Assembly (NCBI GenBank): GCA_049472275.1
Contig: JBLIRL010000002.1
Location: forward strand, 1 to 35,921
DNA length: 35,921 bases
Direction of reading: 5' to 3'
Source: Thermoplasmatota archaeon
GTDB taxonomy: Archaea > Thermoplasmatota > Penumbrarchaeia > Penumbrarchaeales > Penumbrarchaeaceae
The number at the start of each line of letters is the position of its first letter. The first letter of the stretch is position 1. The position numbers and the translations under genes were made by a program. This document shows, one piece after another, positions 1 to 27,613 of this stretch. The notes below the pieces were generated by a model. The model had not been told where the DNA came from. It did no database searches and saw nothing but the letters and a program-made list of their open reading frames with translations.

Positions 1-437
1 ACGGGTTCCAGAACGGGAACCTTCGCCAGCATTCCGAAGAATCTCGTATCCTCGGCATTCTGAGAGGAGAACTGCTGCGGATCATCGGCTGTCACGACCA
101 CAAGACCCCCTCTGACACCGGTGACCGATATGACTGTAAGTGCATCTGCGATAAGGTTCACACCCAGCATCTTGGTCGTCATCAGGGACCTCACACCGGC
201 GAGCGCCCCACCTGCTGCGACCTCGAAGGCGACGGCCTCATTGACCGAGAACTCGGCGTGGAAACCGATTTCCGGGGCCACATCGCCCAATCTCTCCATT
301 ATTGTCGATGCCGGCGTTCCAGGATAGGCAGCTGACACGACCACTCCCGCTTCCAGACAACCTCTGGCGACAGCCTCGTTCCCCGTGAGCAGGACCTTGT
401 CACCAGCTGCTCCAAGTATCCTATGCTTCTTTGGCAT
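1..437 (-). CDS. iorA: Indolepyruvate:ferredoxin oxidoreductase alpha subunit (IorA-type 2-oxoacid:ferredoxin oxidoreductase), N-terminal ~145 aa; gene runs off the window edge
   Basis: Not in the ORF track because it is open at the window edge. My translation of the minus strand from ATG 437-435 is MPKKHRILGAAGDKVLLTGNEAVARGCLEAGVVVSAAYPGTPASTIMERL...GGLVVVTADDPQQFSSQNAEDTRFFGMLAKVPVLEP. This fits the conserved IorA N-terminus (GNEA.ARG..EAGV...YPGTP; ADDP...SSQN..D.R). It starts 30 nt downstream of the megasynthase stop on the same strand, with no T-run in between. Confidence 0.75.
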   Translation of the reverse strand, partial: MPKKHRILGAAGDKVLLTGNEAVARGCLEAGVVVSAAYPGTPASTIMERLGDVAPEIGFHAEFSVNEAVAFEVAAGGALAGVRSLMTTKMLGVNLIADALTVISVTGVRGGLVVVTADDPQQFSSQNAEDTRFFGMLAKVPVLEP

Positions 438-467: not shown

Positions 468-3400
468 TCATTTCCCCTCGATACAGACCGTCAGCACGTA
501 GGCAGATGGAACATGTGCCTGGACCTTGCTTTCTTCATCCCCATGGTTCACGAAGACCTCGAATGATATTCCGCCCTTGTTCGGAAGTTTGACCACCTCG
601 GTGCACTGGACGGACCGAAGGTCGACCGAAAGACCCAAGCCCTTCATCTTCAGATATGATTCCTTGGCAGAGAAGAACAGGGTCTGCATTACATTCTCGC
701 CCACGTCGTATTCCTTCTGCTTCCTCTTGATCAATTCGGCCTCTTCGATGGTGAATGCCTCATCCACGAAGGACAGATCCCTATGCTCGGCCAGTTCTAT
801 ATCGACCCCGTGGACGCTGTCGGAAACGGAGCAAACGGCCCATCTGTGGGAATGTGAGATCGATATCTCTATCTTCTTGCCTTCTGCAAGGGCGTAGGGT
901 TTCCCCCCCTCCTCGGTCATTATCTTTATCGACCGTGTGGGTACAACCCTGTATTTCTCGGTGGCGAGATACCAGAGGACGGCCATCTTTGCGCAGACCC
1001 TCCCCATCGTATGCTCCCTTCTCCTCTTCTGGGTCATCTTCTCGTTGACCAATCCTTTCCATTCTTCCTCATCGAAATATTTCACGTAGTTCTCTAGGTC
1101 CTCCGGGGCTGAATCCAGATCTATCCTGAAGACCCTGGCTCCCTCACCGGGACTGTGAAACTCCTCGTAATGGACGGAGTGGTCCCCCTTCAGCTCTCCC
1201 TCGTAGGCCATCATGGACTTCAGCTGGTAATCCCTGAAGGAGAAGCGAACGTTCCCATCCCCGTCCACGAAGTCCACGTCGAACTTGAACGTGGTGTCCT
1301 CCCTGCCCTCGAACCTTACCCAGGCGAGGCCGGGTTCCGATGTGAAGGTATCGACGTGATATTCGATAGAACCCACCTTGGTGGGAAGCGCCATCAACTT
1401 GAACCTGTCAAGAACGTACGCCCCCGCGGTCTGGAAACCGCATTCGGTCTGCATCGGAGCGGTGAGTATGTCGCTGTTGGTCCATCCTGTTGCAGGATCG
1501 AACATGTCGGAGGGCGCCGGTCTGTAGACGCCAACGAGCTCACCGTCCTTCAGGACCTCCATCCCCTCGAGGACCTGGAATCGCGGACCGTGGAAGAGGT
1601 GTTCATATATCTCGGGCCTCAGGACCTGGGCGAGCACGTTCCGGGGTTTCAGGGGATGGTCCATGACCTTCTGGCACTCCCGGGATCTAGTTCCCATAAC
1701 GACACTACCGTTGTAATGTTCCACCTGGACCTCCTTCCCAGTCTTCTTGGATCGGAGGATCGAATACACCCTGAGGGTGACTATCGTCTCGTCATCACCT
1801 TCCGATTCAATTCCGCCCTCCACGAAGAGGTCGAGCTGCTCCTTTACGTTCACAGCTTTCTTGAACCGGATATCCCGAAGCTCGACGACCTCCTTGTCGG
1901 AGCAAAGCGTTTTGGCAGTCTCCGCGAAAAGCTCCATCCCCATCACTCCCGGAAGAACCATCGTACCCATTATCGAATGGTCCGGAAGGAACCTTTCCCT
2001 TTTCCCATCCAGGGATCTTCTGACATGAATCCTGGTCCCGGTGTTCTCTATCACCTCGTCCAGGAGAGGCCCCGGACCTTTGGGGATCGAAGGTTCCTTA
2101 TCGACTTCGTTCGGCAACTCCGGAGACGACTCTTCCTTCATAGGTGGATGAATTCCCTCGGACCATTTCAGGATACCACCCTTGTCCATCGGTCCAAGGG
2201 ATCCTGAGTAATATATCTCCCTCTCCTTCCCGTGAAGGATCTCCGATATTGCATATTCGATCCCGTCATCGGCTGGTATGAAGGTTATGCCGCCCATCTC
2301 GAGGAGGGTCTTGACAGCTCCTCTTGAGGCCATGCCAACATTTGCCCATGCTGACCACCCAACTGCCTTGAATATGCAGTCAGGATGGTATTTGAGCAGG
2401 GCGCCCCTCAATTTGGCAATGGTATCATTCGCACTGCTGTAGTCCACCTGTCCGGCGTTGCCGAACCTGCCAGCTACAGAGGTGAAGGTAAGGAAGAACT
2501 TCACGGGATGGTCCCTTGTTGCTCCGATGACAGCCTTCGCTCCCTGAACCTTGATATCGAAAACCCTGTCGAAATCCTCCTCTTTCTTGGAAAGCAGGGA
2601 TTTCGACTGCTCAATCCCCGCCGCATGGATGATCCCATCTATCCGGCCGGCCTCGGCTGCGATCCTGGATATGGCCTCCGCATCCCTGATATCTGATCTG
2701 TGATAATGAGGCTCGGAACCCATGGATTCCAGCTCCTTCAGGAGTTTGTGGACACCGATGCTCCTCGTTATCCTCGAGAATTCGCGATCGAGCATTACCG
2801 GTGTTACCTTCTTTCCTTCGTCGATCAGCGCCTTTCTGATCTCCTCCTTCTTCGCTGCAAGCCCCTCCTCATCCAGTTCGGACAGTTCCTCCGTATCCGG
2901 AAGAAGCTCTGCGATGTCTATTATGTGGAACTTCAGCTTGGCCCTCTTGGCAAGTCCCTTAATGATCTCCGCCGTAATGCCTCCCCCGCCACCGGATACG
3001 AGTATCGACATGCCGTCAACCAGATCGATATTGGGCCGTCTCGGAGGTAAGAATATCCTCATAGCCGGGAGATACCTCCTGATGCCATCGCTCCCCACCT
3101 CTAGGGGATGGCCCTCATTGGAAACCTCTGCAAGTAGGAGATCACATGCACTCTCGACCCCGATCCCGGGGTCCACGTCAAGGGATATCACGTCGGCATC
3201 CGGATATTCACGACCCACCGCCTTGGTGAAACCCGAGATGCTGCCGTTGAACGGATTCACACTTCGGTCCAGGGCGAACCTGCCACCCATTCCGGTGATG
3301 GAGTAGAGGAATCCTCCCTCCTTCAGCCTCCTGTCCAGGGACTTGCAGGTCCGAAACAGCAATTTCGATGTGGATGCCGACAGTCTTTCCCAGTCCTCCG

Positions 3401-6400
3401 GGTCCGGATCGGCTTCCAGGAACAGCGGGGAGATGCAGACGATCCCCTCGATCTCACCTATGGCTTCCTCGTCGTAATCGAACATACCCTGGGGGATATG
3501 GAATGCATCGATCCCCAGCTTCTCCTCCACTACAAGGGCCGAACCCTCGTCCCCGCCGATAATGAGCGCCTTCCTCCCCCTGACCGGACTTTTCCCGGTC
3601 TCCAGCATCGGAGCCTCGTCCGATTGGAGGACCCATCTGTTTATCCTCCCTTTCAGCTGCTCCTCGGATAGCTGTTCCACACTCACTTCCTCCTCTTCAT
3701 CGACGGAGGGTTGCTCCCGCTGCTCCGCCACGCCTGTCGAAACAACGTAATCGATGATCTTCCTTAGAGTATTGAGGTCCGTGAGATTGATAGAGTCGTC
3801 CCTCGGCAGGTTGAACTTCTCCCTTGCCATCGCGAATAGCTCCACCTGTTTCACCGTGTCTATACCGAGATCGGCCTCGAGGTCCAGGTCGAGCTCGAGC
3901 ATATCTTCAGGATAGCCTGTCTTCTCGGCCACGATCTCGATGACCTTCGTCTTGACGTTCTCCCAGTGATCGGAGCTTCCCGTTTCGGAACTCGCCTCCG
4001 GTGGTTCCTTCTTCTCGACCGCCTTCTCCACGACCGGCGCCGGTTCTCGGGAAATGGCTGATATCTGCACTGGCTCGGTTACCGTTGTAACGGACCAGAT
4101 CTTGCCTACAACATAATCTATGATCTTTCTCAGGGTGTTGAGCTCGGAGAGGTTAACGGAATCATCCTTGGGCAGAGAGAAATCCTCCCGGGCGGTGGCG
4201 AACAGCTCCACCTGTTTCACCGTGTCTATACCGAGATCGGCCTCGAGGTCCAGGTCGAGCTCGAGCATATCCTCAGGATAGCCTGTCTTCTCGGCCACAA
4301 GTGATATCACGATATCCTTCGCATTGTCCCAGACCTCCTGGCTAGAGGAAGGCCGGGGAGCTGTTTCATGTTCAGGTTCCGGTTCTGGTTCTGGTTGGGG
4401 TTCGGGTTCGGCCTCCCGAGCAGGGGCGGCATCCTCGACCTCCGTCCCCCCGGAAGGGAGCGCCTTTTTCTCCTCTCTGATCGGGATCTCCCCTCCCATC
4501 TTCTCGATAACATAGTCGATGATCTTTCTCAGTGTATTGAGGTCCTGCAGATTGATGGCATCATCCCTGGGAAGATCGAAATCCTCCCTTGCAAGTGCAA
4601 AGAGCTCCACCTGCTTCACCGTGTCTATACCGAGATCGGCCTCGAGATCGAGGTCCAGCTCCAGCATGTCATCGGGATAACCTGTTTTCTCGGATACCAG
4701 TGCCACGACCTTGTCCTTGACCTGGTCCCACCGGTCGATCTCCTCCTCGGCTTCCACCTCAATCTTCTTCTCCTTGTCACCACTGTCTACCTCCACCTCG
4801 ACCTCCTCGGTGATGTGGACCGGTCTTCTCTCCTCCGCGACCCGTCCTTTGCCAGATTTGATCTCCTTCTTGTGGATGATGTAATTGATTATATGTCTCA
4901 ATGTTGGAAAGTCCCTCAGGTTCACGCCCTCGTCCTTGGGAAGTTCGAAATGAATCCTAGCAGCTCCGAACAGTTCCACCTGTTTCACGGTGTCGATGCC
5001 GAGATCGGCCTCGAGGTCAGCATCTATGTCGATCGTGTCCTCCGGGAATCCCATCTTCCGGGCGAATATCCCGACAACCTGCTCCTTGACCTCCCTGAAG
5101 ATCGCCTCGTCAACGGTCTCCGCTATCTTCCTCTGATATCCTATCTCGGAGGATTCCCTTCTCACAGCCCTGTGGGGGATAAGATGGTCCCTTCCCGAGT
5201 CCTTGAGCCTCAGCACGTTCCTTTCTACCTCCAGCTCGACGGGTTCTGTGGTTGCTACCGAACGAAGCCATGCCTCGTAACGATCACGAGAAATGTACCG
5301 GTCTCTCGAATCCGGCCTCTTCATGAGCAGGAAGGACAGCTGGGATCCGAAACCGGCTGCCAGTCTCAATCCGTAATGTCGGTCATGCTTGCCTCCCCTT
5401 GAAAGCTGCATGCCCTCGAACTGCCTGTCAATGTGATGGGGATCGAGGTTCGCAATGGGTATCTCGAAACCGTTCTCGAGGCATTTGACAAGCACAGGGT
5501 CCTCAAGACACGCTCCGAAGGCATGCCCTGTGTAACCTTTCGTGTTAAGAATGACGATGTCCCTGAAATTCTCCCCGAAGGTCCGCCTCAGCGACTCCAC
5601 CTCGGCCGCCGAGGAACCGCCCCTTGCAGGGGTGTACGTCTCATGGGACATGAAAAGCATATCGGAGGCTATCTCCTCCCTCTTCAGACCGTGCATCCTT
5701 TCCATCTTGTGGATGAACCTGTCCATTGACCTAGCGATATGCGCCACGTCCAGCCTGGAACCGTGGAATGCGGAGTTCCCGATATGCGAGCCCAGAACCT
5801 CGACTATCGGGTTCATACCCCTTCTTCGCGGCTCTTCCTCGGCTTCCACGACCAGCGCGGCGACGCCGGAACCGAGTATCATCCCCTTCCTTCGCTCATC
5901 GAAGGGGATCGCTGCATTCTTGATATCCTTCTCGTTCGTCAGGGCTCCCATCGCCAGCAAGGAAGAGCCGAACCATTCCATATTGGCATCCGAGGCCGGG
6001 TCATCGGCTCCAAGTACGATAACGCGTTTGCACCTTCCGGATTGGATCCAATCCTGTGCAATGCCCACAGCGATGGTCGATGTCGCGCATGCGGAGTTAA
6101 CATGGATGTTCGGACCTTTGGCCTTGATGTACTGTGCGAACTGCGAATGCCCCATGGCAAGGACCCTGAACATGAAATTCCTCGGGAAATGGTATTCCTT
6201 AACCCCCTCGTTCATGCCGAGGGCTTCGAACTCTTCCTGGAGTTCCGTATCCTTCACCCTTTTCCTGACAGCCTCGATGAGCCTTTCCCTTTCCTTTCCG
6301 ATCGCCTTGTGTATCTTTGCCGTGTAGTACTGCGCAAGTTCGGTCAACAGCCTGTCGATCCCGGGGAACGCCGATGCGAAAATGATCCCAGTGTCCTCCT

Positions 6401-9400
6401 GAAGCTCCAGCGGAAGTTCCCAATCCTCGGGCAGGAAGGACCCCGTGGAGGTCTGCGAATATCTCTTCACAAGAGGTATGCCGGCATCCTTCAGGGAGAG
6501 GAGTCCCGCACCGAAGGCAAGCTGCGAGGTGATATCCAGTGAATCGATCAGACTCTCGGGAACACCGAACTCCTCGTTGAGATCGAAGGGACTCAGTCTT
6601 CCTGCGAACTGTGCCACCTTCGTACCATCGTCCAGTTTGACCATCTCGGCGGAACCGTCCGGCTTCTTGTCGAGCCTGATGATGTTCTTGTCGATGAATC
6701 CGGTCTTCTGTTCTTCCGTTAGGGCCTCTATGAGATTCCTCCCCTGAACCAGGAGGTCCAGGTTCTCCTCCGCGAATACCTTTTTAAAACTCCCGGGGAG
6801 ACCGAATGCGGCACCCGAGATCACCACCCTTGCTCCTCTCCTGGTCGGTGCCGTGGTCCCGGTGCCGGAAAGGTCCACGTCATCCCGGAAGGGTTCCTCT
6901 ATGGCTGCCTTGCCGGGAACGGACCCATGTATCTCCCTCAGGAACCTGTCGATGGCTTCCTTGTTGGAGGACAGGAACTCATCGAAGGAAGGTGATCTGT
7001 CGCTGACCGATGGAGCACCTGTGGCACCTTGGACGACGGGTGGGATGGATGACTCGGACGGGCCAAGGCCCTCTGACCCTCTGCTTGTGGGCATATCCTT
7101 GACGAAGCCGTCCAGGGCGTCGAGGAACTCGGAGGTGAAGAATTCGCGGTCATCCTTCGCGGGGATCCTCAGGTCGAAACCGAGGGACCAAAGGAAGGAG
7201 ACCATCTCGTTGAAGGTGGACATCCCGCCCTTCTTCGGATGGTTGGAAGTTATCGGAAAGACCATGCCCTTTTTGACCTCGTCTTCCATGAGATTGTAGG
7301 CGAAGGAAGTGAGGGCCCTTTTCGGTCCCACCTCGATGAAGGTCCTGCAGCCGTCCGCGTAGGCCCTTTCCACCTGGGAGATCCACTCCACCGATGAGGC
7401 TACCTGCTCTTTTAAAAGGTCGAGTATATCCTCCTTTATCCTTTTCGGATCGCCCTCCATCGGATAGTAGTCACCGGTAACGTTGGAAAGGAGAGGTATC
7501 TTCGGGGGATTTATCGTCAGCTTCGAGAGGTAATCACGAAGTATATCCTTCACGGGTGCAACCACACCGGAGTGGAAAGCATGCGAGACGGGAAGCTGGA
7601 CCGCTTCTATGCCGCGCTCCTCGAACTTCCTGATGGCCTGGTCAACGGCTTCCGACTGCCCCGCGATGACCGTCTGGACCAGACAGTTCTTGTTTGCGGG
7701 AATCACATATCCATCGACCTCCGAGATAACTTCCTCCACCACATCCAGTCCGGCCATCACCGAGGCCATCTTTCCGGGATCGTCGACCTTTAGGTCCCTC
7801 ATCTCCCTACCCCTTGCCGAGACGGCTTTCAGGGCGTCCCCGAAATCCATCACTCCCGATGCTATCAGCGCACCGTACTCCCCGAGGGAATGCCCCATGG
7901 CAAGATCGGGTTTCACACCAAGCCTCTGAAGTAGCTTGTACATGGCGGTATCCACTGTCAGCATGGAGGGCTGATTGAACTCAGTCCTCCTGAGGGTCTC
8001 GGAGGCCTCCTTGTATTCAGGTGTCTTCGGTTCCACATCCCGGAATACGTAGGTCGACAGCGGCTCAGGGATCAGGTCCTCCATCACGCTGTCGGCCTCG
8101 TCGAAGGTTTCCCTGACCATTTTGAACTTGTTGCGAAGCTCCCTGAACATGTTGATGTACTGGGAACCCTGTCCCGGGAACATGAAGCAAACCTTGCCGT
8201 GGTCCATTCTCTCCCTGTCGCCAACGAATATCCCCTTTGCGGCAAGAGCCAGCAGTCCCTTCTCGTTCATTCCCACCTTCTTGAGCATTTCGACCTGTTT
8301 CGCCAGATGCTCGTGGTCCCTTGCGGATATGCCGAGCCGGTACCTGCCTTCGTAGGACGGCATCGTGAAGGCATCTCTCAGCCTGCCTCCCGATTCGAAC
8401 AATTCGCTTGCCTTCTTGACAGAATCTTCTGCCTGCCTCAGAAGATCGAGGGGATTGTCGGATGAAAACAGGAAATATTCGGCCTCCTCCTCCTGGTGCT
8501 CCTTCAGGTATGATCTTACACCCTCAAGGTCAACTTCCCTTCCGGCCTCGCCCGGGTCCTGTACCGGGGATCCTGGCTCGTCGCATTCCCGTACGCCTTC
8601 CGATGCCCCCTTTGCAGCCTTCCAAGCTTCATAGATCTCGCTGTCGAACTCCTCGAGTATCACATGAAAGTTGGTCCCTCCGAACCCGAATGCGGAAACA
8701 CCGCACCTTCTCGGTACATCCTCTTTCTTGCGAACCCACTCCTTCGCTTCGGTGATGACGAAGAAGGGGGAAGTGCCCCAATCATAGTAAGGATTCGGTC
8801 TCTCGAAATTTATCTGGGGAGGCAGTATCTTATTCTTTATCGCCAGAAGTGATTTTATCATACCGGCGGCTCCCGCTGCGGATTTCAGGTGCCCGATCTG
8901 GGATTTGATGGACGTCAGTCCGATGGATCCATTGGGCATATCCTTGAAGAACTGGTCCAGGGAATTGAGCTCCGCAACATCTCCAACGGCTGTGGAGGTT
9001 CCATGCGCCTCGATGAAGGATATGGTGTCGATATCCACCCCGGCGTCCGCATAGGCGTTCTTCAGGGCGAGGGTCTGCCCCTCGGGATTGGGGGCAGTTA
9101 TCCCCTTGGCCTTTCCGTCACTGGATGCACCTATTCCTCTCACGACACCGTAGATCTTGTCCCCGTCGTTCACGGCATCATCCAGGCGTTTGAGTATTAT
9201 TATTCCCGATCCCTCTCCCATAAGGAAACCGTTGGCTCCTTCTGCGAATGGACGCGATCCGTCCGGGGTCAGGGCGCCTATCTTGCAGAATTCCACGAAG
9301 CTCTGGGAGGTCATGACCGAATCGGTTCCGCCGGATACGGCGATGTCTATCTGGTCAAGAAGCAGTGCGTTCCTTGCCGTATGGACCGCTGCCAGAGAGG

Positions 9401-11123
9401 ACGCGCATGCTGCGTCGGTGATGAAGTTGGGACCCTTCAGATTGAAGAGATTGGCGAGCCTTCCGGAAGCGATGTTCGGAAGGCAGCCCGGCATGGAATC
9501 CTCGTTTATCTGAATAATTTTTTCGTCCATTATCCCATGAACCGCGTTCTTTATCCTGACCCTGGCATCCTGGGGAAGGTTCTTCCACTCCTCGACCTCG
9601 TCCATCCAGGCATAAAGATTGTCGAAGGAAACCCTGAGCGCCCCCCAGTCCCTGTTCTCTCCACCGCCGGAGTTGGAGACGATGACCCCTATCCGTGTCC
9701 TGTCCACCTCGCTGTTGTCGATAAGCCCGGAATCTATCAAAGCCTCCTTGCAGGCCTTCATGGCGTACCTCTGGTAGCGATCGATCTGCTCGAAGAGTTT
9801 TGGGGGAAGCCTGAACTCCCTGAAATCCATGTCGAGATCGGTTATGAAAGCTCCGATCTTGGTATAGGTCTTGTCAGGCTTCTTCCTGTCAGGATCGTAA
9901 TAGTACTTCCAGTCCCACCTGTCCTTGGGCACCTCCATGGACGCGTCCACACCATCCAGGACCGCCTTCCAGAAATTATCGGTCCCGATGCCCTTCGGGA
10001 AAACCGAGCCGATACCCACGACGGCGATCGACCTGTCGTGATAGTCCTCCGGGACGGGCATTCCATCTACCGTGATCTCACTTCTGTCCAATTTTTCCCC
10101 CTCCTTTGTATATTCCGTTTCAATCGCATCCTTGACAGCTTTCTCCGTTGCCGACACCGGGGCAAGGTCAGACAGTGCCTCCTCGACACCGCCGTAGGAT
10201 TCAAGCTCCCTCGCTTCCGACAGTTCCTCGCCCGCCGGATACAATATGCCGCCCCCTCCCTTCAGGGAAGAAGCGACGAGCTCCTTCATGCTCTCCTTCA
10301 AAGTAATGTATACGGTCTTCGGATCCTCATCCTGATCGACCATTGCCTTCTCGAGATTTGTCAGGTCGCTCCTCGTGGCATCATCGGCAATGAACCTGTG
10401 CGGCCTTCCGATGGACTCTCCGACAAGGAACGTGTCCCCGCTCCTGTGGGCATCAATCAGTTCCCTGAGTGCTTCCGGGAGAGAGGCCTCCGATGTGGAG
10501 AACAGCTGGGAATCCATCACCAGACCGGATATCCCGAGGTCCCGGGCCTTCCCGAGGTCGGAGAGGGGTATGCCTCCTCTCACGATCAGAGGCCTGTCAT
10601 CGACCTCCTTGAGGACCTCGGCCAGGAGGTCTTTTGTGCTGAGTTCGGAAACCCTTCCTCCACCCTCCCGGCCCCTGAGTATCAATGCATCCGCCCCTGC
10701 CTGCGAGGACGCCTCCGCCTCCTCAACTGTACATACCTCCTGGAAGACCTTCAGCCCCATGGACCGGGCCGTCTCGTATATGGTCGACCTGACCATGTCG
10801 GGTATGGTCTCCTTCGGCATGGATACGAGGAGTTTCATTCCGTCGGGAAGCTCGCCGGTTATCAGGGATTGGAGCTTCTCGCTCATCGGGTCCACGCGGA
10901 CCCCGAAATCCACCGATGATCCGTCCATTGCCCTCAGGAGTTCCGCTATTCCATTTGAATCGACGTACTCCAGGTCGATGACCCCCATGGCTCCGGCCTT
11001 GGAAGCGGCCATGGCGAGTCCTGGGTCGGTCTGCCCGGGAGGATTATAGACAATTATGTCCATACTTGTACGAAGTAGAGAGCCTACTGTCTCAACACTA
11101 ACTCTGTCCGTTCCTGAACTCAT
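468..11123 (-). CDS. Type I iterative PKS / PUFA-synthase-like megasynthase, 3,551 aa: ER-like(NMO/FabK/PfaD TIM barrel)-KS-AT-KS-ACPx4-KR-DH-PPTase
   Basis: Uninterrupted 10,656-nt ORF with a GGTGA motif 4 nt upstream of ATG 11123. Motifs read from the translation follow. NMO/FabK-like barrel: [23 protein letters not shown]. KS1: DAAC573ASS, EAH707GTST, GH745LKSAAG. Malonyl-type AT: PGQGSQ, GHS1079LGE, H1181AFH. KS2: NSAC1679ATS, SH1827ET, TGH1867AFG. Four ACP-like repeats: [12 protein letters not shown] with T2045/2168/2301/2423. KR: [9 protein letters not shown], DY2895SSAN. PKS-type DH: H3049[17 protein letters not shown]. Sfp-type PPTase: GKPY, [21 protein letters not shown]. My residue count closes exactly on 3551. 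Confidence 0.92.
   Translation of the reverse strand: [3551 protein letters not shown]
471..1151 (-). other. Domain: Sfp-type 4'-phosphopantetheinyl transferase fused at the C-terminus, aa ~3325-3551
   Basis: [69 protein letters not shown] and [14 protein letters not shown] match the Sfp-family motif order (GKP; (F/I)S(I/H)SH; G(I/V)D(I/L)E; (F/W)(S/C)xKE(S/A)xxK). Confidence 0.8.
1200..2072 (-). other. Domain: PKS-type (double hot-dog) dehydratase, aa ~3018-3308
   Basis: LPDH3049[11 protein letters not shown] matches HxxxGxxxxP (His codon 1977-1979). [12 protein letters not shown] matches the GYxYGPxF-like motif. A second hot-dog half follows and ends near FRDYQLKSM. Confidence 0.75.
2196..3656 (-). 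other. Domain: ketoreductase (structural plus catalytic subdomains), aa ~2490-2976
   Basis: Pseudo-Rossmann segment [16 protein letters not shown]; catalytic Rossmann segment [23 protein letters not shown] (Ser2710 codon 2994-2996); [22 protein letters not shown]2895SSAND. Confidence 0.8.
3741..5105 (-). repeat. Four tandem ACP-like domain-encoding repeats (units ~4875-5105, 4506-4736, 4107-4337, 3741-3971), spaced 369/399/366 nt between equivalent positions
   Basis: Each unit encodes ..V..KTGYP(E/D)[31 protein letters not shown].DD.(I/V)NL..[11 protein letters not shown].. (unit 1 is more divergent). The DNA repeat is visible directly: 95 nt at 3838-3932 match 4204-4298 with one mismatch. 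The linkers are acidic, low-complexity or PEPEPQ-type. Confidence 0.88.
5316..6833 (-). other. Domain: second ketosynthase KS2 (aa ~1431-1936) with intact Cys-His-His, placed between AT and the ACP array
   Basis: [13 protein letters not shown] N-terminus, PNIHVNSAC1679ATSTIAVG (Cys codon 6087-6089), FMSH1827ETYTP, [8 protein letters not shown]1867AFGA, [13 protein letters not shown] C-terminus. It has a long insertion (~aa 1470-1640) compared with KS1. Confidence 0.75.
7302..8198 (-). other. Domain: acyltransferase (malonyl-CoA:ACP type), aa ~976-1274
   Basis: [10 protein letters not shown], GHS1079LGEYGA (Ser codon 7887-7889), and VSHAFHSG, where the HAFH motif is classically associated with malonyl specificity. 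Confidence 0.9.
8646..10037 (-). other. Domain: ketosynthase KS1 (aa ~363-826), canonical Cys-His-His
   Basis: [13 protein letters not shown] N-terminus, [10 protein letters not shown]573ASSLAAV (Cys codon 9405-9407), EAH707[8 protein letters not shown], IGH745[22 protein letters not shown] C-terminus. Confidence 0.9.
10389..11066 (-). other. Domain: FMN-dependent enoyl-reductase-like TIM barrel (nitronate monooxygenase/FabK/PfaD family), aa ~20-245, approximate borders
   Basis: [65 protein letters not shown] and [31 protein letters not shown] parallel the NMO/FabK motifs (PM.G....LA.AVS.AGGLG; GAD.....G.EAGGH; P....GGI.DG). The usual His of E(A/S)GGH is Arg157 here. Confidence 0.55.
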
Positions 11124-11438
11124 GGTCTCACCAGGGAAGGCAATTCACTCAACGTTGAATGCGCATTTTCCCCTAACATGAAATGGTTAATAAAAATTAT
11201 GTTCTATTAGTAATGATTTTTTTTACTTTTTTAACTCGATGTCGAAGAAAACAATAAAAAAATGGAATGAAAAGGACGACAACATCTTAACATAATTGTA
11301 TCAATGAGTGAATTAACGGTAATAAAGGTCTCAAACCTTCTGGCCGCGGGTAAAAACCTCCATAATAGTCAATTACACCATGGACGAACGTTAACCTCCA
11401 TGAAGATATCAAATGGGTGAAGTGGTCCTAAGCCAGCG
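11124..11438 (-). promoter_or_regulatory. AT-rich intergenic region carrying the likely megasynthase promoter (TATA-like TTTTTATTAA on the minus strand at ~11187-11198, ~65-75 nt upstream of the ATG)
   Basis: 315 nt that is visibly far more AT-rich than the flanking coding DNA. It holds the only strong TATA-like element upstream of ATG 11123. A 10-nt inverted repeat, AATTCACTCA (11142-11151) and TGAGTGAATT (11305-11314), brackets the AT-rich core. Confidence 0.4.
11247..11262 (-). terminator. Candidate archaeal oligo-T terminator for the RDH-like gene (minus-strand TTTTTTTATTGTTTT)
   Basis: Plus-strand A7 run at 11256-11262 followed by AAAA reads as T7..T4 on the minus strand, ~180 nt downstream of stop 11439. 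A T5 run (11352-11356) lies closer to the stop. Archaeal termination commonly uses oligo-T tracts. Confidence 0.3.
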
Positions 11439-17092: not shown

Positions 17093-18589
17093 TTGCGTTT
17101 TGGGAAGAACGGGACGGTTCTCATTATCATATCATTGATGATTCTTCTCGATGGGGTCCAGATCCTGTCCCCCATATTTCCTGGGGTTTCCAATTCGGGA
17201 GCCAGGGGGGCGCCATCTCCCCCTGAGAACGTCTCGGCTTCTCTGGTTTCCCGGGATGTCATAGAGGTCTCTTGGGACCCACCTTCCTCCGATGGGGGGA
17301 TCCCTATCATCTCGTACGATCTCCTGAGGTCGATGGACGGAGGCATATACATTCCGATCACATCATCGAACTCCACATCCGGCAGGCAATCATACTGGGA
17401 TGCGGATCTGGAGCCCGATCACAATTTTTCATACAGGGTTTCGGCGAGCAACCAGAACGGTTCATCCCCGCTGAGCGAGGAAGCCTGGATCATTTTAGAG
17501 GCTCCACCGAATTCACCGAATAACCTTACCGCCATTTCGGGGGATGGAAAGGTATACCTGCAATGGGAAGAACCGGAACCCAGAATATATTCGGGTATCG
17601 ATGGATACAGTATAGCTCTGTATTTCGAGGGTGAATGGATTGAACCCTCCATGACAAAACCCTCGAACGCCACATCCTGGGAGATCACGGGTCTCGAGAA
17701 CGCCGGAGATTACTATGCCGAGCTCGTTGCCTTCAATAGTATAGGCGGATCCGAACCTGCGGGCGTCTCGTTCTCTCCCGGCGCTCCTCCATCACCTCCG
17801 ACCAACGTCAGGATCGCCGCGGAAGGCTCGTCTGCCGTCATATCATGGAACACGCCGGGGAACAACGGGGGGTACCCCGTGGTCAGATATCATGTGTTCA
17901 GGAAAGTGAATAACGGCTCGATCGAGGTGGTTGGTACGAGACCCAGCGGTGCAAGGAGCCTCACAGACCACGGTCTGGAGCTCGACACCCGCTACCATTA
18001 TTACATCAGGGCGGAGAACATCATCGGTTTCTCCCTGCCGAGCGAGGTGGTCGAGTTCTTCAAACCCACGACATACAACGTTCCGCTTCCTCCAAATATC
18101 ACTCTGGCAAGGAAGGGAGTGCTCTGGATCGAGATCCACTGGGAAGCTCCTCCGGCACAAGCGGGGGCCCCGATCACGGAATACAGGGTCTATAGAACCC
18201 ATTTCGACAAGGGACGTTTCGAGAACACAACCACGGTTGGTCCGAACTCCACCCTATTCAACGACACAGATGTCAAATACGATATCAACTACACTTACCG
18301 CATATCCGCCGTGAACCGCATCGGTGAATCAGGGAAGGGCGACCCAGTTACCATAAGGGTCAGAAACCTGTCCGAACCTTCACCCGAGGTCAACATCACC
18401 GGCAAAGTGAAGAAGGACCACAGAGCCTTGATCTTCGGAGCCATCGGGGGACTCGTGATCGTTGCGATCTCCATCTTTCTCTATTTCTTCATGACCAGGG
18501 AGATTCAGATCGAACCTCCTCCCGGGGACGGGGAATCGTACGAGGATAACCTCACCGTTAGGATCGACCGCGGTCAAGGACCCTCTTGA
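17093..18589 (+). CDS. Surface-anchored protein with four fibronectin type III domains, 498 aa, TTG start
   Basis: Four FN3 openings: PSPPENVSASLVSRDVIEVSWDPP, PNSPNNLTAISGDGKVYLQWEEP, PSPPTNVRIAAEGSSAVISWNTP, PLPPNITLARKGVLWIEIHWEAP. Each is followed by Y.(V/L).R and (V/I)SA.N..G motifs. N-terminal anchor MRFGKNGTVLIIISLMILL; C-terminal TM ALIFGAIGGLVIVAISIFLYFFM. About 15 N-x-S/T sequons. A GGAGG motif sits 7 nt upstream of TTG 17093; the next in-frame ATG (17138) would remove the charged n-region. Confidence 0.75.
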   Translation: MRFGKNGTVLIIISLMILLDGVQILSPIFPGVSNSGARGAPSPPENVSASLVSRDVIEVSWDPPSSDGGIPIISYDLLRSMDGGIYIPITSSNSTSGRQSYWDADLEPDHNFSYRVSASNQNGSSPLSEEAWIILEAPPNSPNNLTAISGDGKVYLQWEEPEPRIYSGIDGYSIALYFEGEWIEPSMTKPSNATSWEITGLENAGDYYAELVAFNSIGGSEPAGVSFSPGAPPSPPTNVRIAAEGSSAVISWNTPGNNGGYPVVRYHVFRKVNNGSIEVVGTRPSGARSLTDHGLELDTRYHYYIRAENIIGFSLPSEVVEFFKPTTYNVPLPPNITLARKGVLWIEIHWEAPPAQAGAPITEYRVYRTHFDKGRFENTTTVGPNSTLFNDTDVKYDINYTYRISAVNRIGESGKGDPVTIRVRNLSEPSPEVNITGKVKKDHRALIFGAIGGLVIVAISIFLYFFMTREIQIEPPPGDGESYEDNLTVRIDRGQGPS

Positions 18590-19757
18590 GCTCCTGGTTC
18601 AGGGCCGGGACCATCTGAAGGACATCTCCCACGAGACCGACATCAGCCAACTTGAAGATCGGGGCAGTCGGATCCTTGTTTATCGCCACTATGAAATCAG
18701 AACCCCGCATGCCCACCTGATGCTGAATCTTCCCCGATATCCCGCATGCTATGTAGAGCTTCGGCGAGATGGTCTTTCCCGTCTGTCCAACCTGGTCTGA
18801 CCTCGGTCTCCACCCCGAATCCACGGCCACCCTGGAGGCTCCCACGGCTCCTTTCAGTGTGTCAGCCAGGTCCTCGAGCAACCTGAAGTTCTCCGGAGAT
18901 CCCATACCTGCACCGCCCGCAACCACGATATCCGATTCCTCGATGCCCTTGACACCTTCCCTGGAGGTGCTCACGATCTCAAGTATCCTGACTGCGAGTT
19001 CATCGGTCCTGACGTTCACAGGCACTTCGATCACCTCGGGTTCCTTCCCTTTTCCACCCTCCGCTCTGAAAACGTTGGGCCTTACCGTTGCCATCTGAGG
19101 TCTCACATCGGGGGCCACGATATCCGCCATGATGTTGCCGCCGAATGCAGGTCTCGATTGTATCAAGAGACCGTCCGAGATCGATAGACCGGTACAATCT
19201 GCGGTCAATCCGACCGCGAGCGTTGCGGCGACCCGGGGAGCGAGGTCCCTCCCGATGTGAGTGGCGGGAAAGAGGACGATGCTCGGACTGTGCTTCAGAA
19301 TAAGACCCGAAACGATTGGCGCGAATGATTCGGTGAGATACTGTTCAAGGGTCTTATGTTCCGCGAGATAGACTATATCCACGCCGTGATCTCCCAGCTG
19401 TTTTGCGAAATTTCCGATCCTATCCCCGAGCAGTATCGCTCCGACATCCTCGGATAGCTCATCTGCGAGATCTCTGGCCTTTGTCGCGAGTTCCAGGGCG
19501 GAGGAGGAGAGCCGGCCGTTCCTGACCTCGCAGAATACCCACACACCGCGGTAAGTGGTACTGTCAACCTCCCTTCCGCGAGGGTGCTCGAACTCGATTG
19601 CATCGAAACTGCATAACTTCACACAAACGCCGCATAGAGTGCATTCCGGTCCTATCTCGGCCTTTCCATCCACCATCCTTATCGCGTTGAAAGGGCACCC
19701 CTTAGAACATGCCGTGCAGCCAACGCATTTATCCCCGATTATCTCGATCCCCATCAC
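18558..19757 (-). CDS. etfA: Electron transfer flavoprotein alpha subunit with an N-terminal 2x[4Fe-4S] ferredoxin domain
   Basis: CVGCTACSKGCP and CTLCGVCVKLCS, then an ETF-alpha body ending in the FAD motif PKLYIACGISGKIQHQVGM. The start is either GTG 19757 or, more likely, ATG 19754, which overlaps the etfB stop (TGATG). Confidence 0.85.
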   Translation of the reverse strand: MMGIEIIGDKCVGCTACSKGCPFNAIRMVDGKAEIGPECTLCGVCVKLCSFDAIEFEHPRGREVDSTTYRGVWVFCEVRNGRLSSSALELATKARDLADELSEDVGAILLGDRIGNFAKQLGDHGVDIVYLAEHKTLEQYLTESFAPIVSGLILKHSPSIVLFPATHIGRDLAPRVAATLAVGLTADCTGLSISDGLLIQSRPAFGGNIMADIVAPDVRPQMATVRPNVFRAEGGKGKEPEVIEVPVNVRTDELAVRILEIVSTSREGVKGIEESDIVVAGGAGMGSPENFRLLEDLADTLKGAVGASRVAVDSGWRPRSDQVGQTGKTISPKLYIACGISGKIQHQVGMRGSDFIVAINKDPTAPIFKLADVGLVGDVLQMVPALNQELKRVLDRGRS

Positions 19758-20560
19758 CCATCACCTCCGATGATCTTCCTCTCAACTAGGATCTCCGCCA
19801 GCTGTCTCGTCATCTCCCCCGTGTCTCCCTTCAGCATCCTCGTATCGTCCCTTGCGGGCGGGGAATAGGTCCGCCTAACCTGGGTCGGGGAGCCCGCGAG
19901 TCCCAGATCATCCTCGTTTGCCTTGACGGCCTTATGGTCAAGGACCTCGTAGGGCTTTCTCCTTGCTTCCATGATTCCCGGGAGCGGTGCGACCTTCGGA
20001 ACGAAGGAGGGTGATGGGATGCAGGTAACCAGGACTGGCATTCTCGATTCGAGAACCCTTGAACCGTCCTCAGTCTGCTGCGTGACCTGAAGTCTTCCGT
20101 CATAGGTCAGGGATAACTTCTCCGCATAGGTAATCTGTGCAAGGCCAAGAAGCTCAGCCATCTCCGGTCCGACCTGGGCGGTGTCCCCGTCGATCGCCTG
20201 GAGTCCGCAGAATACGATGTCCGCATTACCTATCTTCCTCACGGCGTGTGACAGGGCAACGGAAGTAGCCCATGTATCGGAACCCGCGAAAACCCTGTCC
20301 GAAAGCAGATAGGCCCGGTCCGCACCGAGGGCCAGGGATTTCTGAAGGACCCTTCTGGCCTGAGGGGGGCCCATCGAAAGTACGATCACCTCGATATCAT
20401 CCCGGGAACCCTTCAACCTGAGAGCCTCTTCGAGGGCGAAATGGTCGTAGGGATTGAGGATCGACTCGACCCCTTCTCTGACCAGGGTATTTGTCTTCGG
20501 ATCGATCCTTACCTCCGTCGTGTCGGGAACCTGCTTTACGCATACAACGAACCTCATCAA
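19754..20560 (-). CDS. etfB: Electron transfer flavoprotein beta subunit
   Basis: MMRFVVCVKQVPDTTEVRIDPKTNTLVREGVESILNPYDHFALEEALRLK is a textbook EtfB N-terminus. A GGAGGTGA motif lies upstream. The gene starts 9 nt after the ACAD stop. Confidence 0.9.
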   Translation of the reverse strand: MMRFVVCVKQVPDTTEVRIDPKTNTLVREGVESILNPYDHFALEEALRLKGSRDDIEVIVLSMGPPQARRVLQKSLALGADRAYLLSDRVFAGSDTWATSVALSHAVRKIGNADIVFCGLQAIDGDTAQVGPEMAELLGLAQITYAEKLSLTYDGRLQVTQQTEDGSRVLESRMPVLVTCIPSPSFVPKVAPLPGIMEARRKPYEVLDHKAVKANEDDLGLAGSPTQVRRTYSPPARDDTRMLKGDTGEMTRQLAEILVERKIIGGDG

Positions 20561-20569
20561 CTCACCTCC

Positions 20570-22213: not shown

Positions 22214-22287
22214 GAGCACCACCGGATGATGGTCGGGAGAACGATCCGGGGACCGGCCCCTTCCACGGGAGGGGGCCTAATAATCAC

Positions 22288-26185: not shown

Positions 26186-26203
26186 AGGTATTCCTCCATA
26201 ACG

Positions 26204-26210
26204 TATAAAT
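26204..26210 (+). promoter_or_regulatory. TATA-like box (TATAAAT) ~27 nt upstream of ATG 26234; possible internal promoter giving a leaderless transcript
   Basis: No SD-like motif precedes ATG 26234, and the TATA-to-ATG spacing matches the archaeal TATA-to-TSS distance. Confidence 0.3.
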
Positions 26211-26233
26211 CGGAATGATACAGCTTCGTACCC

Positions 26234-27520: not shown

Positions 27521-27613
27521 ACATTTGGGAATGTCCCCATAACCCTTATGTACAATGTCCCGTAATTGACTGGCTGTAGGGATGGGGTGGTCGTCTACAT
27601 CCGGGGGATCGTG

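What the first reader, a model, noticed from the sequence alone, without database searches (positions are those of the whole stretch)
468..11123. Self-contained 3,551-aa PUFA-synthase/PKSE-like megasynthase in an apparently archaeal locus
Seen: one ORF encodes, in order, an FMN-type ER-like barrel, KS, malonyl-type AT, a second KS with intact Cys-His-His, four tandem ACP-like domains, KR, a PKS-type DH and an Sfp-type PPTase. No thioesterase or other release domain occurs in the ORF or the window. Established: PUFA synthases split these activities over PfaA (KS-AT-ACPn-KR-DH), PfaC (KS-CLF-DH-DH), PfaD (ER) and PfaE (PPTase), and enediyne PKSE is KS-AT-ACP-KR-DH-PPTase. Inference: this looks like PfaD + PfaA + an extra KS + PfaE fused into one self-priming polypeptide holding every activity needed for a full reductive acyl-chain cycle. 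The surrounding signals look archaeal (TATA boxes ~27 nt from ATGs, AGG/AGA/ATA codons, IOR, sequon-rich anchored surface proteins). Archaea as a rule lack ACP, AcpS and type I FAS/PKS and build isoprenoid lipids, so a resident assembly line of this kind would be unusual. Codon choice inside the ORF (for example GGT ATA GAC ACG for G-I-D-T, and frequent AGG/AGA) matches the neighbours, which argues against very recent transfer.
Basis: partly seen in the sequence, partly recalled or inferred. Interest (0 to 1): 0.9.

Follow-up and report, generated by a model that had tools for sequence, protein, structure and literature searches.

The report
Archaeal PfaA-like lipid megasynthase, threonine carriers
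A Thermoplasmatota archaeon carries an intact 3,551-residue fatty-acid/polyketide-type assembly enzyme of a widespread but uncharacterised family, and its carrier domains have threonine where every known carrier protein has the cofactor-bearing serine.

Summary
ORF 468-11123 (minus strand) encodes 3,551 aa with the stated domain order, and every Pfam hit exceeds its gathering score. No thioesterase was found in the window.

The locus is archaeal. Seventeen species-level Thermoplasmatota MAGs carry homologues at 45-78% identity, and five of them hold the same single giant ORF. Flanking genes are syntenic (iorAB, AMP phosphorylase, adenylate kinase, a TBP gene), and codon usage matches the neighbours (r = 0.965).

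The interpretation needs three corrections.
1. The architecture is not unique. KS-AT-KS2-ACPn-KR-DH(-PPTase) is the core of a family with at least 513 representative clusters across many bacterial phyla and Asgard archaea. It best fits the uncharacterised 'Type R secondary lipid synthase' of Shulse & Allen 2011.
2. The N-terminal barrel is the degenerate paralogue of a two-barrel module and lacks the QGPMA, GGH and GTxY motifs. The protein is probably not self-sufficient for enoyl reduction. An orthologous long acyl-CoA dehydrogenase with EtfAB (18558-22222) is the likely trans partner.
3. All four carrier domains read LGIDTV. Thr replaces the phosphopantetheine Ser in 339 of 360 carrier domains family-wide, and I found no report of this.

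Product and release step remain unknown.

The parts
468..11123 (-). Megasynthase ORF, 3,551 aa: ERdeg-KS1-AT-KS2-ACPx4-KR-DH-PPTase.
   Evidence: The same architecture is seen in P0143 (3,514 aa; 90% identical over the KS2 query) and in L006, L013, L014, L015 and L021.
10224..11066 (-). N-terminal NMO/FabK-fold barrel of the degenerate class (aa ~20-300). R157 sits where FabK has its His.
   Evidence: Pfam NMO 46.3 bits. FabK TIGR03151 54.8 bits against a cut-off of 453. PDB FabK E 2e-12, with the alignment showing GGGR vs GGGH, VRGGI vs AAGGI and DSQL vs GTRF. A low-confidence AF2 model (pLDDT 58) best matches nitroalkane-oxidase/NMO and FabK-type barrels. Family motif table.
8634..10034 (-). 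KS1, a PfaA-like ketosynthase (aa 364-830; C573, H707, H745).
7254..8195 (-). Malonyl-type acyltransferase (aa 977-1290; GHS1079LGE, HAFH).
   Evidence: Pfam Acyl_transf_1 127.7 bits; FabD TIGR00128 201 bits. Motifs.
5256..6857 (-). KS2, a family-specific FabF-like ketosynthase of about 530 aa with an intact triad (C1679, H1827, H1867). This is probably the domain called 'CLF' in Type R clusters.
   Evidence: PDB best hit is mitochondrial KAS/FabF at only E 1e-19. No NCBIfam family reaches its cut-off. Homologues at 40-64% identity are followed by a sharp drop to about 30% NodE/FabF-like proteins. 513 representative clusters at E<=1e-30.
3735..5090 (-). Four tandem carrier (ACP) domains, each reading DLGIDTVKQVELF. 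Attachment-site Thr codons lie at 4989-4991, 4620-4622, 4221-4223 and 3855-3857.
   Evidence: Pfam PP-binding, four stretches. The Thr aligns with the Ser of PigH and FAS ACP structures. DNA copies are only 64-80% identical, so repeat collapse is unlikely. Family-wide count: Thr 339, Ser 10.
2154..3245 (-). Ketoreductase with its structural subdomain (aa ~2627-2990).
   Evidence: Pfam KR 86.9 bits. Aligns to PfaA model positions 1912-2258. Motifs.
1212..2069 (-). PKS-type double-hotdog dehydratase (aa 3019-3304; H3049xxxGxxxxP, ExxxQ).
   Evidence: PKS_DH_N 41.3 bits and PS-DH 35.9 bits. Motifs.
471..1106 (-). C-terminal Sfp-type phosphopantetheinyl transferase (aa ~3340-3551; GVDIE, FSAKES).
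   Evidence: Pfam ACPS 36.5 bits. AusB, HetI and EntD models hit below their cut-offs. Invariant columns.
1..437 (-). 5' part of iorA (indolepyruvate:ferredoxin oxidoreductase alpha). It starts 30 nt after the megasynthase stop codon and is probably co-transcribed.
   Evidence: It is 77-87% identical to the gene in the same position in L007, L010, L011, L013, L015, L016 and L017. Pfam TPP_enzyme_C/POR_N/Fer4. iorB follows in L016.
20570..22222 (-). Long acyl-CoA dehydrogenase (550 aa, with a C-terminal extension). Candidate trans-acting partner of the megasynthase.
   Evidence: Pfam ACAD N, M and C domains. Best NCBIfam hit is acryloyl-CoA reductase AcrC, below cut-off. It is 57%, 62% and 51-58% identical to ACADs lying directly upstream of KS1 in bacterial loci L027, L023 and L030.
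18558..20560 (-). EtfB (19754-20560) and ferredoxin-fused EtfA (18558-19757), in one operon with the ACAD.
   Evidence: EtfB model, AcrB/AcrA models. An Etf beta-alpha pair also sits beside the megasynthase in L023. An EtfA 3' end lies at the edge of Asgard locus L028.

Best explanation
This is a functional, resident gene of a Thermoplasmatota archaeon. It encodes an iterative type I synthase of the PfaA-like 'Type R secondary lipid synthase' kind.

Inferred mechanism:
1. The fused Sfp-type PPTase converts the four tandem carrier domains to their holo form. The arm must be attached to Thr (T2045, T2168, T2301, T2423), because that is the only hydroxyl residue at the canonical site.
2. The HAFH-type AT loads malonyl units from malonyl-CoA.
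3. Two catalytically complete ketosynthases extend the chain by decarboxylative condensation: the PfaA-like KS1 and the family-specific KS2. They probably act on different chain-length ranges.
4. KR and the PS-type DH give a trans-2-enoyl intermediate.
5. The N-terminal barrel is a pseudo-ER and does not reduce it. Enoyl reduction, if it occurs, is supplied in trans, most plausibly by the orthologous long acyl-CoA dehydrogenase with ferredoxin-fused EtfAB at 18558-22222. This would resemble Bcd/Acr-Etf enoyl-thioester reductases.
6. The product is a long acyl chain, either fatty-acid-like or partly unsaturated. It is released by an unidentified trans factor or by AT-mediated transfer.

Shown: the domain content, intact motifs, archaeal host, family distribution, Thr at the carrier site, and the degenerate motifs of the barrel. 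Inferred: Thr modification, the division of labour between KS1 and KS2, the ACAD-Etf role, the product and the release step.
For: - Domains and motifs.
- Archaeal and vertically conserved. Seventeen Thermoplasmatota loci at 45-78% identity. Five full-length single ORFs at 57-76% identity over about 3,450 aa. A TBP gene lies 840 nt downstream in L002. Flanks are syntenic: iorAB, AMP phosphorylase, DnaJ/HEAT, ADK, HAD. RSCU r = 0.965. The Thermoplasmatota KS2 sequences form one clade.
- Family. KS2 homologues occur in Asgard archaea and many bacterial phyla. There are 513 clusters at E<=1e-30. The core KS1-AT-KS2-ACPn-KR-DH is present in 67 complete-looking representatives. The Type R description matches in domain order, ACP number, PPTase, ACC and host phyla.
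- Thr carriers. In a few members Ser occupies the same position (ACP1 of L014 and L021; P0151), as expected if the site is functional.
- Pseudo-ER. The canonical domain is invariant for QGPMA / E[AC]GGH / AGGI / G[TS]xY. The window domain reads YNPPG / EGGGR / VRGGI / DSQL.
- ACAD link. Three of the four ER-less bacterial loci examined have the orthologous ACAD immediately upstream of KS1.
- Malonyl-CoA supply genes lie next to the synthase in L009, L023, L027, L028 and L030.
Against: - No biochemical or expression data exist.
- Phosphopantetheinylation of Thr has not, to my knowledge, been demonstrated for any carrier protein. E. coli ACP S36T is reported as unmodifiable (recalled, not checked here).
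- In the window the ACAD-Etf operon is 7.4 kb from the synthase, with four unrelated genes between them. In L016 the corresponding interval lacks it. These ACAD/Etf genes could simply serve beta-oxidation or amino-acid fermentation.
- The degenerate barrel is itself under clear purifying selection (51-76% identity among archaeal homologues), so it has some function. A non-canonical reductase activity is not excluded.
- Type R membership rests on the published description, not on a tree with reference sequences.
Confidence: 0.5

Rival explanations
1. The polypeptide is a fully self-contained, self-priming fatty acid synthase, and the N-terminal barrel is an active FMN-dependent enoyl reductase. 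Saturated fatty acids would be made from malonyl-CoA and NAD(P)H with no partner protein.
For: The barrel has the NMO/FabK fold, passes the Pfam NMO threshold, and is strongly conserved in all archaeal homologues. Arg at the FabK His position could still stabilise an enolate. The barrel sits where relatives carry an ER module.
Against: All three sequence motifs that are invariant in the canonical ER domains of this family, and that are present in the FabK structures, are replaced. In 16 of the 19 representatives that contain this degenerate domain, a canonical ER follows it. That suggests the degenerate domain does not supply the activity itself. The FabK model scores 55 bits against a cut-off of 453.
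Confidence: 0.2
2. A polyene or poly-unsaturated chain synthase. With KR and DH but no working ER, the enzyme would behave like the enediyne PKSE, which shares the KR-DH-PPTase C-terminus. It would make a conjugated polyene or hydroxy-polyene lipid. The ACAD-Etf genes would be unrelated.
For: There is no canonical ER. The C-terminal DH-PPTase fusion resembles that of PKSE. 48 of 67 complete-looking family members lack any ER domain. Locus L026 has aromatic ammonia-lyases and no ACAD or ER, which looks more like a specialised-metabolite cluster.
Against: The orthologous ACAD is tightly coupled, even overlapping, with KS1 in ER-less bacterial loci. Family members that do have an ER module show that reduction is part of the family's repertoire. 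Adjacent ACC genes suggest high-flux, lipid-type synthesis. No PKSE-type hotdog thioesterase or enediyne cassette is present.
Confidence: 0.22
3. The contig is bacterial, and the 'archaeal' assignment is a binning artefact.
For: All evidence comes from MAGs. The gene family is mostly bacterial. The window itself holds no rRNA, tRNA or universal marker gene.
Against: Seventeen species-representative MAGs from many independent studies and binners agree. A TBP gene lies on the same contig as a homologue. Contigs of up to 102 kb share flanking synteny. The window's iorA fragment is 77-87% identical to those contigs. Codon usage is uniform across the window.
Confidence: 0.03
4. An inactive relic: the Ser-to-Thr carriers and the degenerate ER mark a decaying gene.
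For: There is Thr at every carrier site, and the barrel is degenerate.
Against: The 10.6-kb ORF has no stop codon. Every catalytic motif is intact and conserved at 57-76% identity across species. Thr is the rule in 121 of 125 family proteins that have carriers, so it is a family trait and not decay.
Confidence: 0.03

Closest known systems
Type R 'secondary lipid synthase' gene clusters (Shulse & Allen 2011, PMC3098273): Koribacter, Solibacter, Elusimicrobium, Roseiflexus
   Same: One pfaA-like gene with KS-MAT-'CLF'-ACP(3-6)-KR, an associated PPTase, and sometimes an ACC gene between them. It is spread over Acidobacteria, Elusimicrobia and Chloroflexi, the same phyla that turn up among the KS2 homologues here. 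The product is unknown.
   Different: The window gene is archaeal. It has the PPTase fused to the C-terminus and an extra N-terminal degenerate NMO-like barrel. The domain the paper calls CLF keeps its active-site Cys here. The paper mentions neither Thr carriers, nor the ACAD/Etf partner, nor archaea.
Bacterial PUFA synthase PfaABCDE (Type A/B)
   Same: A PfaA-like backbone (TIGR02813 996 bits), tandem ACPs with acidic/Pro-rich linkers, a malonyl AT, KR, a PS-type DH, and dependence on an Sfp-type PPTase.
   Different: There is no PfaC (KS-CLF plus two FabA-type DH/isomerases), no PfaB and no PfaD-type ER. KS2 is inserted between AT and the ACPs. Carriers are Thr, not Ser. Everything is on one chain.
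Enediyne polyketide synthase PKSE (SgcE/CalE8): KS-AT-ACP-KR-DH-PPTase
   Same: An iterative type I enzyme with a KR-DH-PPTase C-terminus and self-phosphopantetheinylation. No ER.
   Different: PKSE has one ACP, no second KS and no N-terminal barrel. It works with a hotdog thioesterase and the enediyne cassette, none of which is present here. PKSE structures were not among the best PDB matches of KS1-AT.
Bcd/EtfAB and AcrABC enoyl-CoA reductase complexes of anaerobes
   Same: The window's ACAD, EtfB and EtfA hit AcrC, AcrB and AcrA best. EtfA carries an N-terminal 2x[4Fe-4S] domain, as in some bifurcating Etf systems.
   Different: Scores are below the equivalog cut-offs. The ACAD has a 150-aa C-terminal extension. 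Its conserved neighbour is a megasynthase, which suggests an ACP-bound substrate.

Membership tests
Type R secondary lipid synthase (Shulse & Allen 2011) | A single pfaA homologue with the order KS-MAT-'CLF'-ACP(3-6)-KR. | tested here: met
   KS1-AT-KS2-ACPx4-KR(-DH). Relatives have 6 ACPs. Description.
Type R secondary lipid synthase (Shulse & Allen 2011) | An associated PPTase, optionally with an ACC gene. | tested here: met
   The PPTase is fused here. It is a separate gene downstream of an ACC in L027 and L030. An ACC lies next to the archaeal homologue in L009.
Type R secondary lipid synthase (Shulse & Allen 2011) | The proximal KS falls in the Type R clade of the published KS tree. | not testable with these tools
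   Reference sequences (Roseiflexus, Koribacter and others) could not be fetched. Only the overlap in host phyla (Terriglobales, Elusimicrobia, Chloroflexota) supports it.
PUFA synthase (PfaABCDE) | PfaA subfamily model TIGR02813 at or above its cut-off. | tested here: not met
   996.2 bits against a cut-off of 1010.1, so marginally below.
PUFA synthase (PfaABCDE) | PfaC with KS-CLF and two FabA-like dehydratase/isomerase domains. | tested here: not met
   No FabA-like hit in the ORF or in any window ORF. KS2 keeps Cys1679, so it is not a CLF.
PUFA synthase (PfaABCDE) | A PfaD-type FMN enoyl reductase with canonical motifs. | tested here: not met
   Only a FabK model hit at 54.8 bits (cut-off 453). 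The motifs are replaced.
PUFA synthase (PfaABCDE) | Tandem ACPs with the LGIDS phosphopantetheine serine. | tested here: not met
   LGIDTV in all four carrier domains.
Enediyne PKSE | KS-AT-ACP-KR-DH-PPTase with a single ACP. | tested here: not met
   Four ACPs, an additional KS2 and an N-terminal barrel.
Enediyne PKSE | A neighbouring hotdog thioesterase and the enediyne cassette genes. | tested here: not met
   None found among the window ORFs or in the flanks of the archaeal homologues examined.
FabK/NMO-type enoyl-ACP reductase | TIM-barrel fold of the NMO family. | tested here: met
   Pfam NMO 46.3 bits against 28. Foldseek best hits are nitroalkane-oxidase/NMO and FabK-type barrels, but the model is weak (pLDDT 58, TM 0.45-0.55).
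FabK/NMO-type enoyl-ACP reductase | The GG(M/P)MA, E-x-GGH and G-T-x-(F/Y) motifs. | tested here: not met
   YNPPG, EGGGR and DSQL occupy those positions.
4'-phosphopantetheine carrier protein (PP-binding) | Four-helix ACP fold matching PF00550. | tested here: met
   Four stretches, 79.1 bits. PDB ACP hits.
4'-phosphopantetheine carrier protein (PP-binding) | A conserved Ser at the start of helix II as the attachment site. | tested here: not met
   Thr aligns with the Ser of PigH and of FAS ACP structures. Whether the Thr is modified cannot be tested here.

The most novel reading that the evidence does not exclude
The KS2-containing megasynthases would form a large family spanning both prokaryotic domains: many bacterial phyla, Thermoplasmatota, and Heimdall-, Hod- and Promethearchaeota. 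Their carrier domains would be O-phosphopantetheinylated on threonine, a modification not described for any carrier protein. The family would give some archaea, including Asgard lineages, a native ACP-dependent route to fatty-acyl-type chains. That route would use a pseudo-ER/ER barrel pair, or an ACAD-Etf complex, for enoyl reduction.
Probability: 0.35. Interest if true: 0.9.

Novelty: new variant of a known kind. Interest (0 to 1): 0.72.

Why it matters
Archaea are textbook examples of organisms that lack ACP, AcpS and type I FAS/PKS and that build isoprenoid ether lipids. Here an intact ACP-dependent acyl-chain assembly line, carrying its own activating enzyme, is stably inherited in a clade of sediment and anoxic-water Thermoplasmatota. 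Close architectural relatives occur in Asgard archaea, which bears on the 'lipid divide' and on how a fatty-acid membrane could arise in an archaeal lineage.

Independently of the host, the family-wide Thr at the prosthetic-group site is a concrete, cheaply testable anomaly in carrier-protein biochemistry. The degenerate/canonical barrel pair and the coupled ACAD-Etf also suggest unexplored solutions to the enoyl-reduction step. The bacterial members ('Type R') have had no assigned product since 2011, as far as the searchable literature shows, so any product assignment would annotate hundreds of gene clusters.

Tried and rejected
- A full-length homologue search with the 3,551-aa protein timed out. 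The exact protein is not on record in the contig index.
- The word-indexed protein search listed only proteins under about 1,000 aa in these searches, so architectures had to be recovered from genome loci and from the representative library.
- The first alignment, with two distant DH-PPTase proteins, was too divergent for the genome scan. It was redone with close sequences.
- No tRNA or Rfam feature was found to help taxonomy.
- A search with the ER-like domain alone found a single hit, another Thermoplasmatota ER-KS fragment. It gave no outside context. The decisive comparison came instead from Asgard locus L028.
- The AF2 model of the barrel built from a two-sequence alignment was weak (pLDDT 58). 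I used it only to confirm the fold class.
- The NJ tree of KS2 could not be rooted, because the outgroup sequences failed the coverage filter. The direction of inter-domain transfer is therefore undetermined.
- The archaeal single-chain ACC in L009 is not orthologous to the bacterial cluster ACC in L027 (25% identity). The ACC association looks convergent rather than inherited.
- Collapse of the ACP repeats as the reason for 4 versus 6 ACPs was rejected. The DNA copies are 64-80% identical, and P0143 also has four.
- Literature searches for Thr-type ACPs, the LGIDT motif, archaeal or Asgard PKS/FAS, and follow-ups on Type R found no characterisation.
- HglE membership was considered but could not be tested, because no model or reference sequence was available.
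Full report
**1. The observation**

The window contains one uninterrupted ORF on the minus strand, 468..11123, of 3,551 aa with an ATG start.

Pfam places the following, each above its gathering score:
- an NMO-type barrel at 121-268 (the FabK model covers 32-281);
- KS at 364-830;
- an acyltransferase at 980-1290;
- a second thiolase-fold KS, roughly 1423-1956;
- four PP-binding domains;
- KR at 2761-2902;
- PKS_DH_N with PS-DH at 3019-3304;
- an ACPS-type PPTase at 3439-3547.

The NCBIfam PfaA model scores 996 bits against a cut-off of 1010.

Both ketosynthases keep Cys-His-His (C573/H707/H745 and C1679/H1827/H1867). The AT has GHSLGE and the malonyl-type HAFH motif. KR, DH and PPTase motifs are intact.

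The seventeen other ORFs that tile the window were scanned, and none is a thioesterase, a FabA-like dehydratase or an ACP. Two residue-level features that it missed are covered in sections 4 and 5.

**2. Whose gene is it**

The window has no tRNA or Rfam feature, so taxonomy came from relatives.

- The C-terminal DH-PPTase region finds partial proteins annotated Thermoplasmata/Thermoplasmatota.
- A scan of one genome per GTDB species returned 17 loci, all from Thermoplasmatota MAGs from many studies, at 45-78% identity. One distant Myxococcota locus (31%) also appeared.
- Five of these loci (L006, L013, L014, L015, L021) hold a single ORF of 3,695-3,786 aa. It is 57-76% identical to the window protein over about 3,450 aa and has the same domain order, including the N-terminal barrel.
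- L016 is the same gene interrupted by a scaffold gap. L012 is split into four ORFs.
- Flanks are syntenic. iorA follows the synthase in the window (30-nt spacer) and in seven other loci, and iorB follows in L016. AMP phosphorylase-like, DnaJ/HEAT, adenylate kinase and HAD genes recur.
- In L002 a TATA-binding-protein gene lies 840 nt downstream.
- Codon usage of the synthase matches the other window genes (RSCU r = 0.965, GC3 0.69).

The gene is archaeal and long-resident. A binning artefact is very unlikely.

**3.

KS2 is only distantly related to solved FabF/KAS structures (E 1e-19), and no NCBIfam family claims it.

It nevertheless has homologues at 40-64% identity in:
- Heimdall-, Hod- and Promethearchaeota;
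- Chloroflexota, Acidobacteriota, Gemmatimonadota, Actinomycetota, Elusimicrobia, Myxococcota, Desulfobacterota, Calditrichota and Gammaproteobacteria.

Below these the scores drop sharply to about 30% identical NodE/FabF-like proteins.

An exhaustive HMMER pass over 1.84 billion cluster representatives gave 513 proteins at E<=1e-30. Many are 2,500-4,000 aa.

I mapped the window's domains onto the top 144 representatives. Of these, 67 look complete and share the core KS1-AT-KS2-ACPn-KR-DH. They divide as follows:
- 48 have no ER-type domain;
- 16 have two N-terminal NMO-like barrels;
- 3 have only the first barrel, and this group includes P0143, the representative closest to the window protein (90% identical over KS2);
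- 23 have the PPTase fused.

Shulse & Allen (2011, PMC3098273) described a 'Type R' secondary lipid synthase: one pfaA homologue with KS-MAT-CLF-ACP(3-6)-KR, a PPTase gene and sometimes an intervening ACC gene. They found it in Acidobacteria, Elusimicrobia and Chloroflexi, with the product unknown, and the paper does not mention archaea. The match in order, ACP number, accessory genes and phyla makes this the closest catalogued class.

I found no later characterisation. A Shark Bay BGC survey had noted a novel PKS in a Heimdallarchaeota MAG, with PUFA KS domains the nearest hits (PMC7472256). A marine survey lists T1PKS as the second commonest BGC class in archaeal genomes.

**4. Threonine carriers**

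All four window carrier domains read DLGIDTVKQVELF. The Thr aligns with the phosphopantetheine Ser of the PigH and FAS ACP structures.

In the five full-length archaeal homologues, 28 of 30 carriers have Thr. ACP1 of L014 and L021 has Ser.

Fragments from bacteria and Asgard archaea show the same LG[IV]DTV. Across the 144 representatives, 339 carriers have Thr, 10 have Ser and 11 are unclear. Of the 125 proteins with carriers, 121 are all-Thr.

The domains are otherwise well conserved and repeated 3-6 times, and Ser and Thr interchange at this one position. The simplest reading is that Thr is the functional attachment site.

I found no report of this. Established carrier-protein biochemistry is Ser-specific. 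That statement rests on my own knowledge.

**5. The 'ER' is a pseudo-ER**

The barrel matches FabK only weakly: 55 bits against a cut-off of 453 and E 2e-12 to PDB FabK.

Alignment to FabK structures shows three substitutions:
- GGGH becomes GGGR (R157);
- AAGGI becomes VRGGI;
- GTRF becomes DSQL.

The Promethearchaeota homologue (L028) has two barrels before KS1. The first is the counterpart of the window's domain (24% identity). The second is canonical, with PIIQGPMA, ECGGH and GTAY.

A family-wide alignment confirms two classes. The canonical class is invariant for QGPMA / E[AC]GGH / AGGI / G[TS]xY. The degenerate class, which includes the window and all Thermoplasmatota homologues, has none of these motifs.

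A low-confidence model (pLDDT 58) still finds nitroalkane-oxidase/NMO and FabK-type barrels as its best folds.

So the window enzyme has KR and DH but no recognisable catalytic ER.

**6. A recurrent partner**

In bacterial loci without any ER domain, an acyl-CoA dehydrogenase lies directly upstream of KS1. In L027 it overlaps KS1 by 4 nt. It is also present in L023 and L030. ACC and PPTase genes lie downstream.

The window's 550-aa ACAD (20570-22222) is 57%, 62% and 51-58% identical to these three, including across its C-terminal extension. That is higher than the identity between the synthases themselves (38-47%).

In the window the ACAD forms an operon with EtfB and a ferredoxin-fused EtfA (18558-20560). 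L023 has Etf beta-alpha next to the synthase, and Asgard locus L028 begins with the end of an EtfA gene. The best NCBIfam hits are the acryloyl-CoA reductase AcrC, AcrB and AcrA models, all below cut-off.

I infer that ACAD-EtfAB is the trans enoyl reductase of ER-less family members. Alternatively it could be a desaturase acting on the ACP-bound chain.

The inference is weakened in two ways. The window operon is 7.4 kb from the synthase, and it is absent from the corresponding interval of L016.

**7. Mechanism, committed**

- Self-priming by the fused PPTase on Thr carriers.
- Malonyl loading by the AT.
- Iterative extension by two active ketosynthases.
- Ketoreduction and dehydration in cis.
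- Enoyl reduction in trans by ACAD-EtfAB (my estimate is about 45-50%), by the degenerate barrel (about 20%), or not at all, giving a polyene (about 20%).
- Release by an unidentified factor.

The core claim, a functional and resident archaeal iterative synthase, I rate at about 0.9. Malonyl-CoA supply genes sit beside the synthase in L009, L023, L027, L028 and L030, but none lies in the window.

**8. Comparison and verdict**

The enzyme works like a PfaA/PKSE-type iterative synthase. It fails the defining tests for a PUFA synthase: no PfaC or FabA-type DH, no PfaD-type ER, Thr carriers, and a PfaA model score just under the cut-off. It also fails those for PKSE: multiple ACPs, an extra KS, and no thioesterase or enediyne cassette.

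It fits the description of the uncharacterised Type R class, of which it is an archaeal variant with a fused PPTase and a pseudo-ER.

Novelty: a new variant of a known kind.

The architecture is widespread, and archaeal PKS genes have been glimpsed before. On the other hand, the Thr carriers, the barrel pair, the ACAD-Etf link and the conserved presence in Thermoplasmatota and Asgard archaea are new and testable.

Noticed in passing
window 1-437 (-) and 438-467; also 11139-11148: iorA starts 30 nt after the megasynthase stop codon. The same gene order (synthase, iorA, then iorB) holds in seven other Thermoplasmatota loci. Both start codons are preceded by the same decamer, GTGAATTGCC (447-438 and 11148-11139). 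An IOR could supply aryl-acetyl-CoA or other starter units, but this is untested.
   Followed up: partly
L009 5006-11329: In one Thermoplasmatota MAG a 2,108-aa single-chain acetyl-CoA carboxylase lies directly downstream of the synthase. It has BC, BCCP, the ACC_central domain (which I recall as typical of eukaryotic ACCs) and CT. It is only 25% identical to the single-chain ACC of bacterial cluster L027.
   Followed up: partly
L028 5879-9641 (Promethearchaeota MAG GCA_048937635.1): The Asgard homologue has two tandem NMO-like barrels (degenerate, then canonical) before KS1. Biotin ligase, ACC carboxyltransferase, thiolase and a B12-radical SAM gene lie upstream. The barrel pair recalls the ER heterodimer reported for thraustochytrid PUFA synthase (title only seen, PMC13311796).
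   Followed up: partly
L024 10001-11644 (Heimdallarchaeota LC_2); L025 10001-11698; L029 3082-5175: Stand-alone KS2 proteins of 547-565 aa exist with no other PKS domain within 10 kb. L029 has a stand-alone KS2-ACP of 697 aa with a Ser-type carrier (LGVDSV). It lies beside the same ADK-HAD-HAD block that flanks the full synthase in Thermoplasmatota loci.
   Followed up: no
L026 3220-6341: One family member (host not identified) has two aromatic ammonia-lyase genes immediately upstream of KS-KS-AT-KS2-ACP-KR-DH, and neither an ACAD nor an ER. This hints that some family members use aryl starters.
   Followed up: no
window 11439-12359 (-): The gene directly upstream of the synthase encodes a 306-aa Fe-S protein. 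It resembles reductive dehalogenase and QueG (TIGR02486, 113.6 bits against a cut-off of 160). A 315-nt AT-rich spacer separates it from the synthase.
   Followed up: no
window 31472-35784 (+): A NapH-like polyferredoxin is followed by a double-cubane-cluster protein (NF040772, 354.6 bits against 350) and two BcrAD/HgdC-type activator ATPases. Together they form an ATP-dependent anaerobic reductase module.
   Followed up: no
window 12494-16081, 17093-18589, 22772-31790: There is a run of large secreted or surface proteins: a transglutaminase-like protein with Big domains, a protein with four fn3 domains, an FtsX-like 1,137-aa protein, and PQQ, WD40 and FG-GAP beta-propellers. ORFs 30291-31790 and 31472-32782 overlap by 319 nt, so one of the two start codons is probably wrong.
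   Followed up: no
window 3735-5090 vs L006, L013, L014, L015, L021: The window, and the 90%-identical representative P0143, have four carrier domains where the other full-length Thermoplasmatota homologues have six. The DNA copies are 64-80% identical, so this looks like a real difference and not an assembly collapse.
   Followed up: yes
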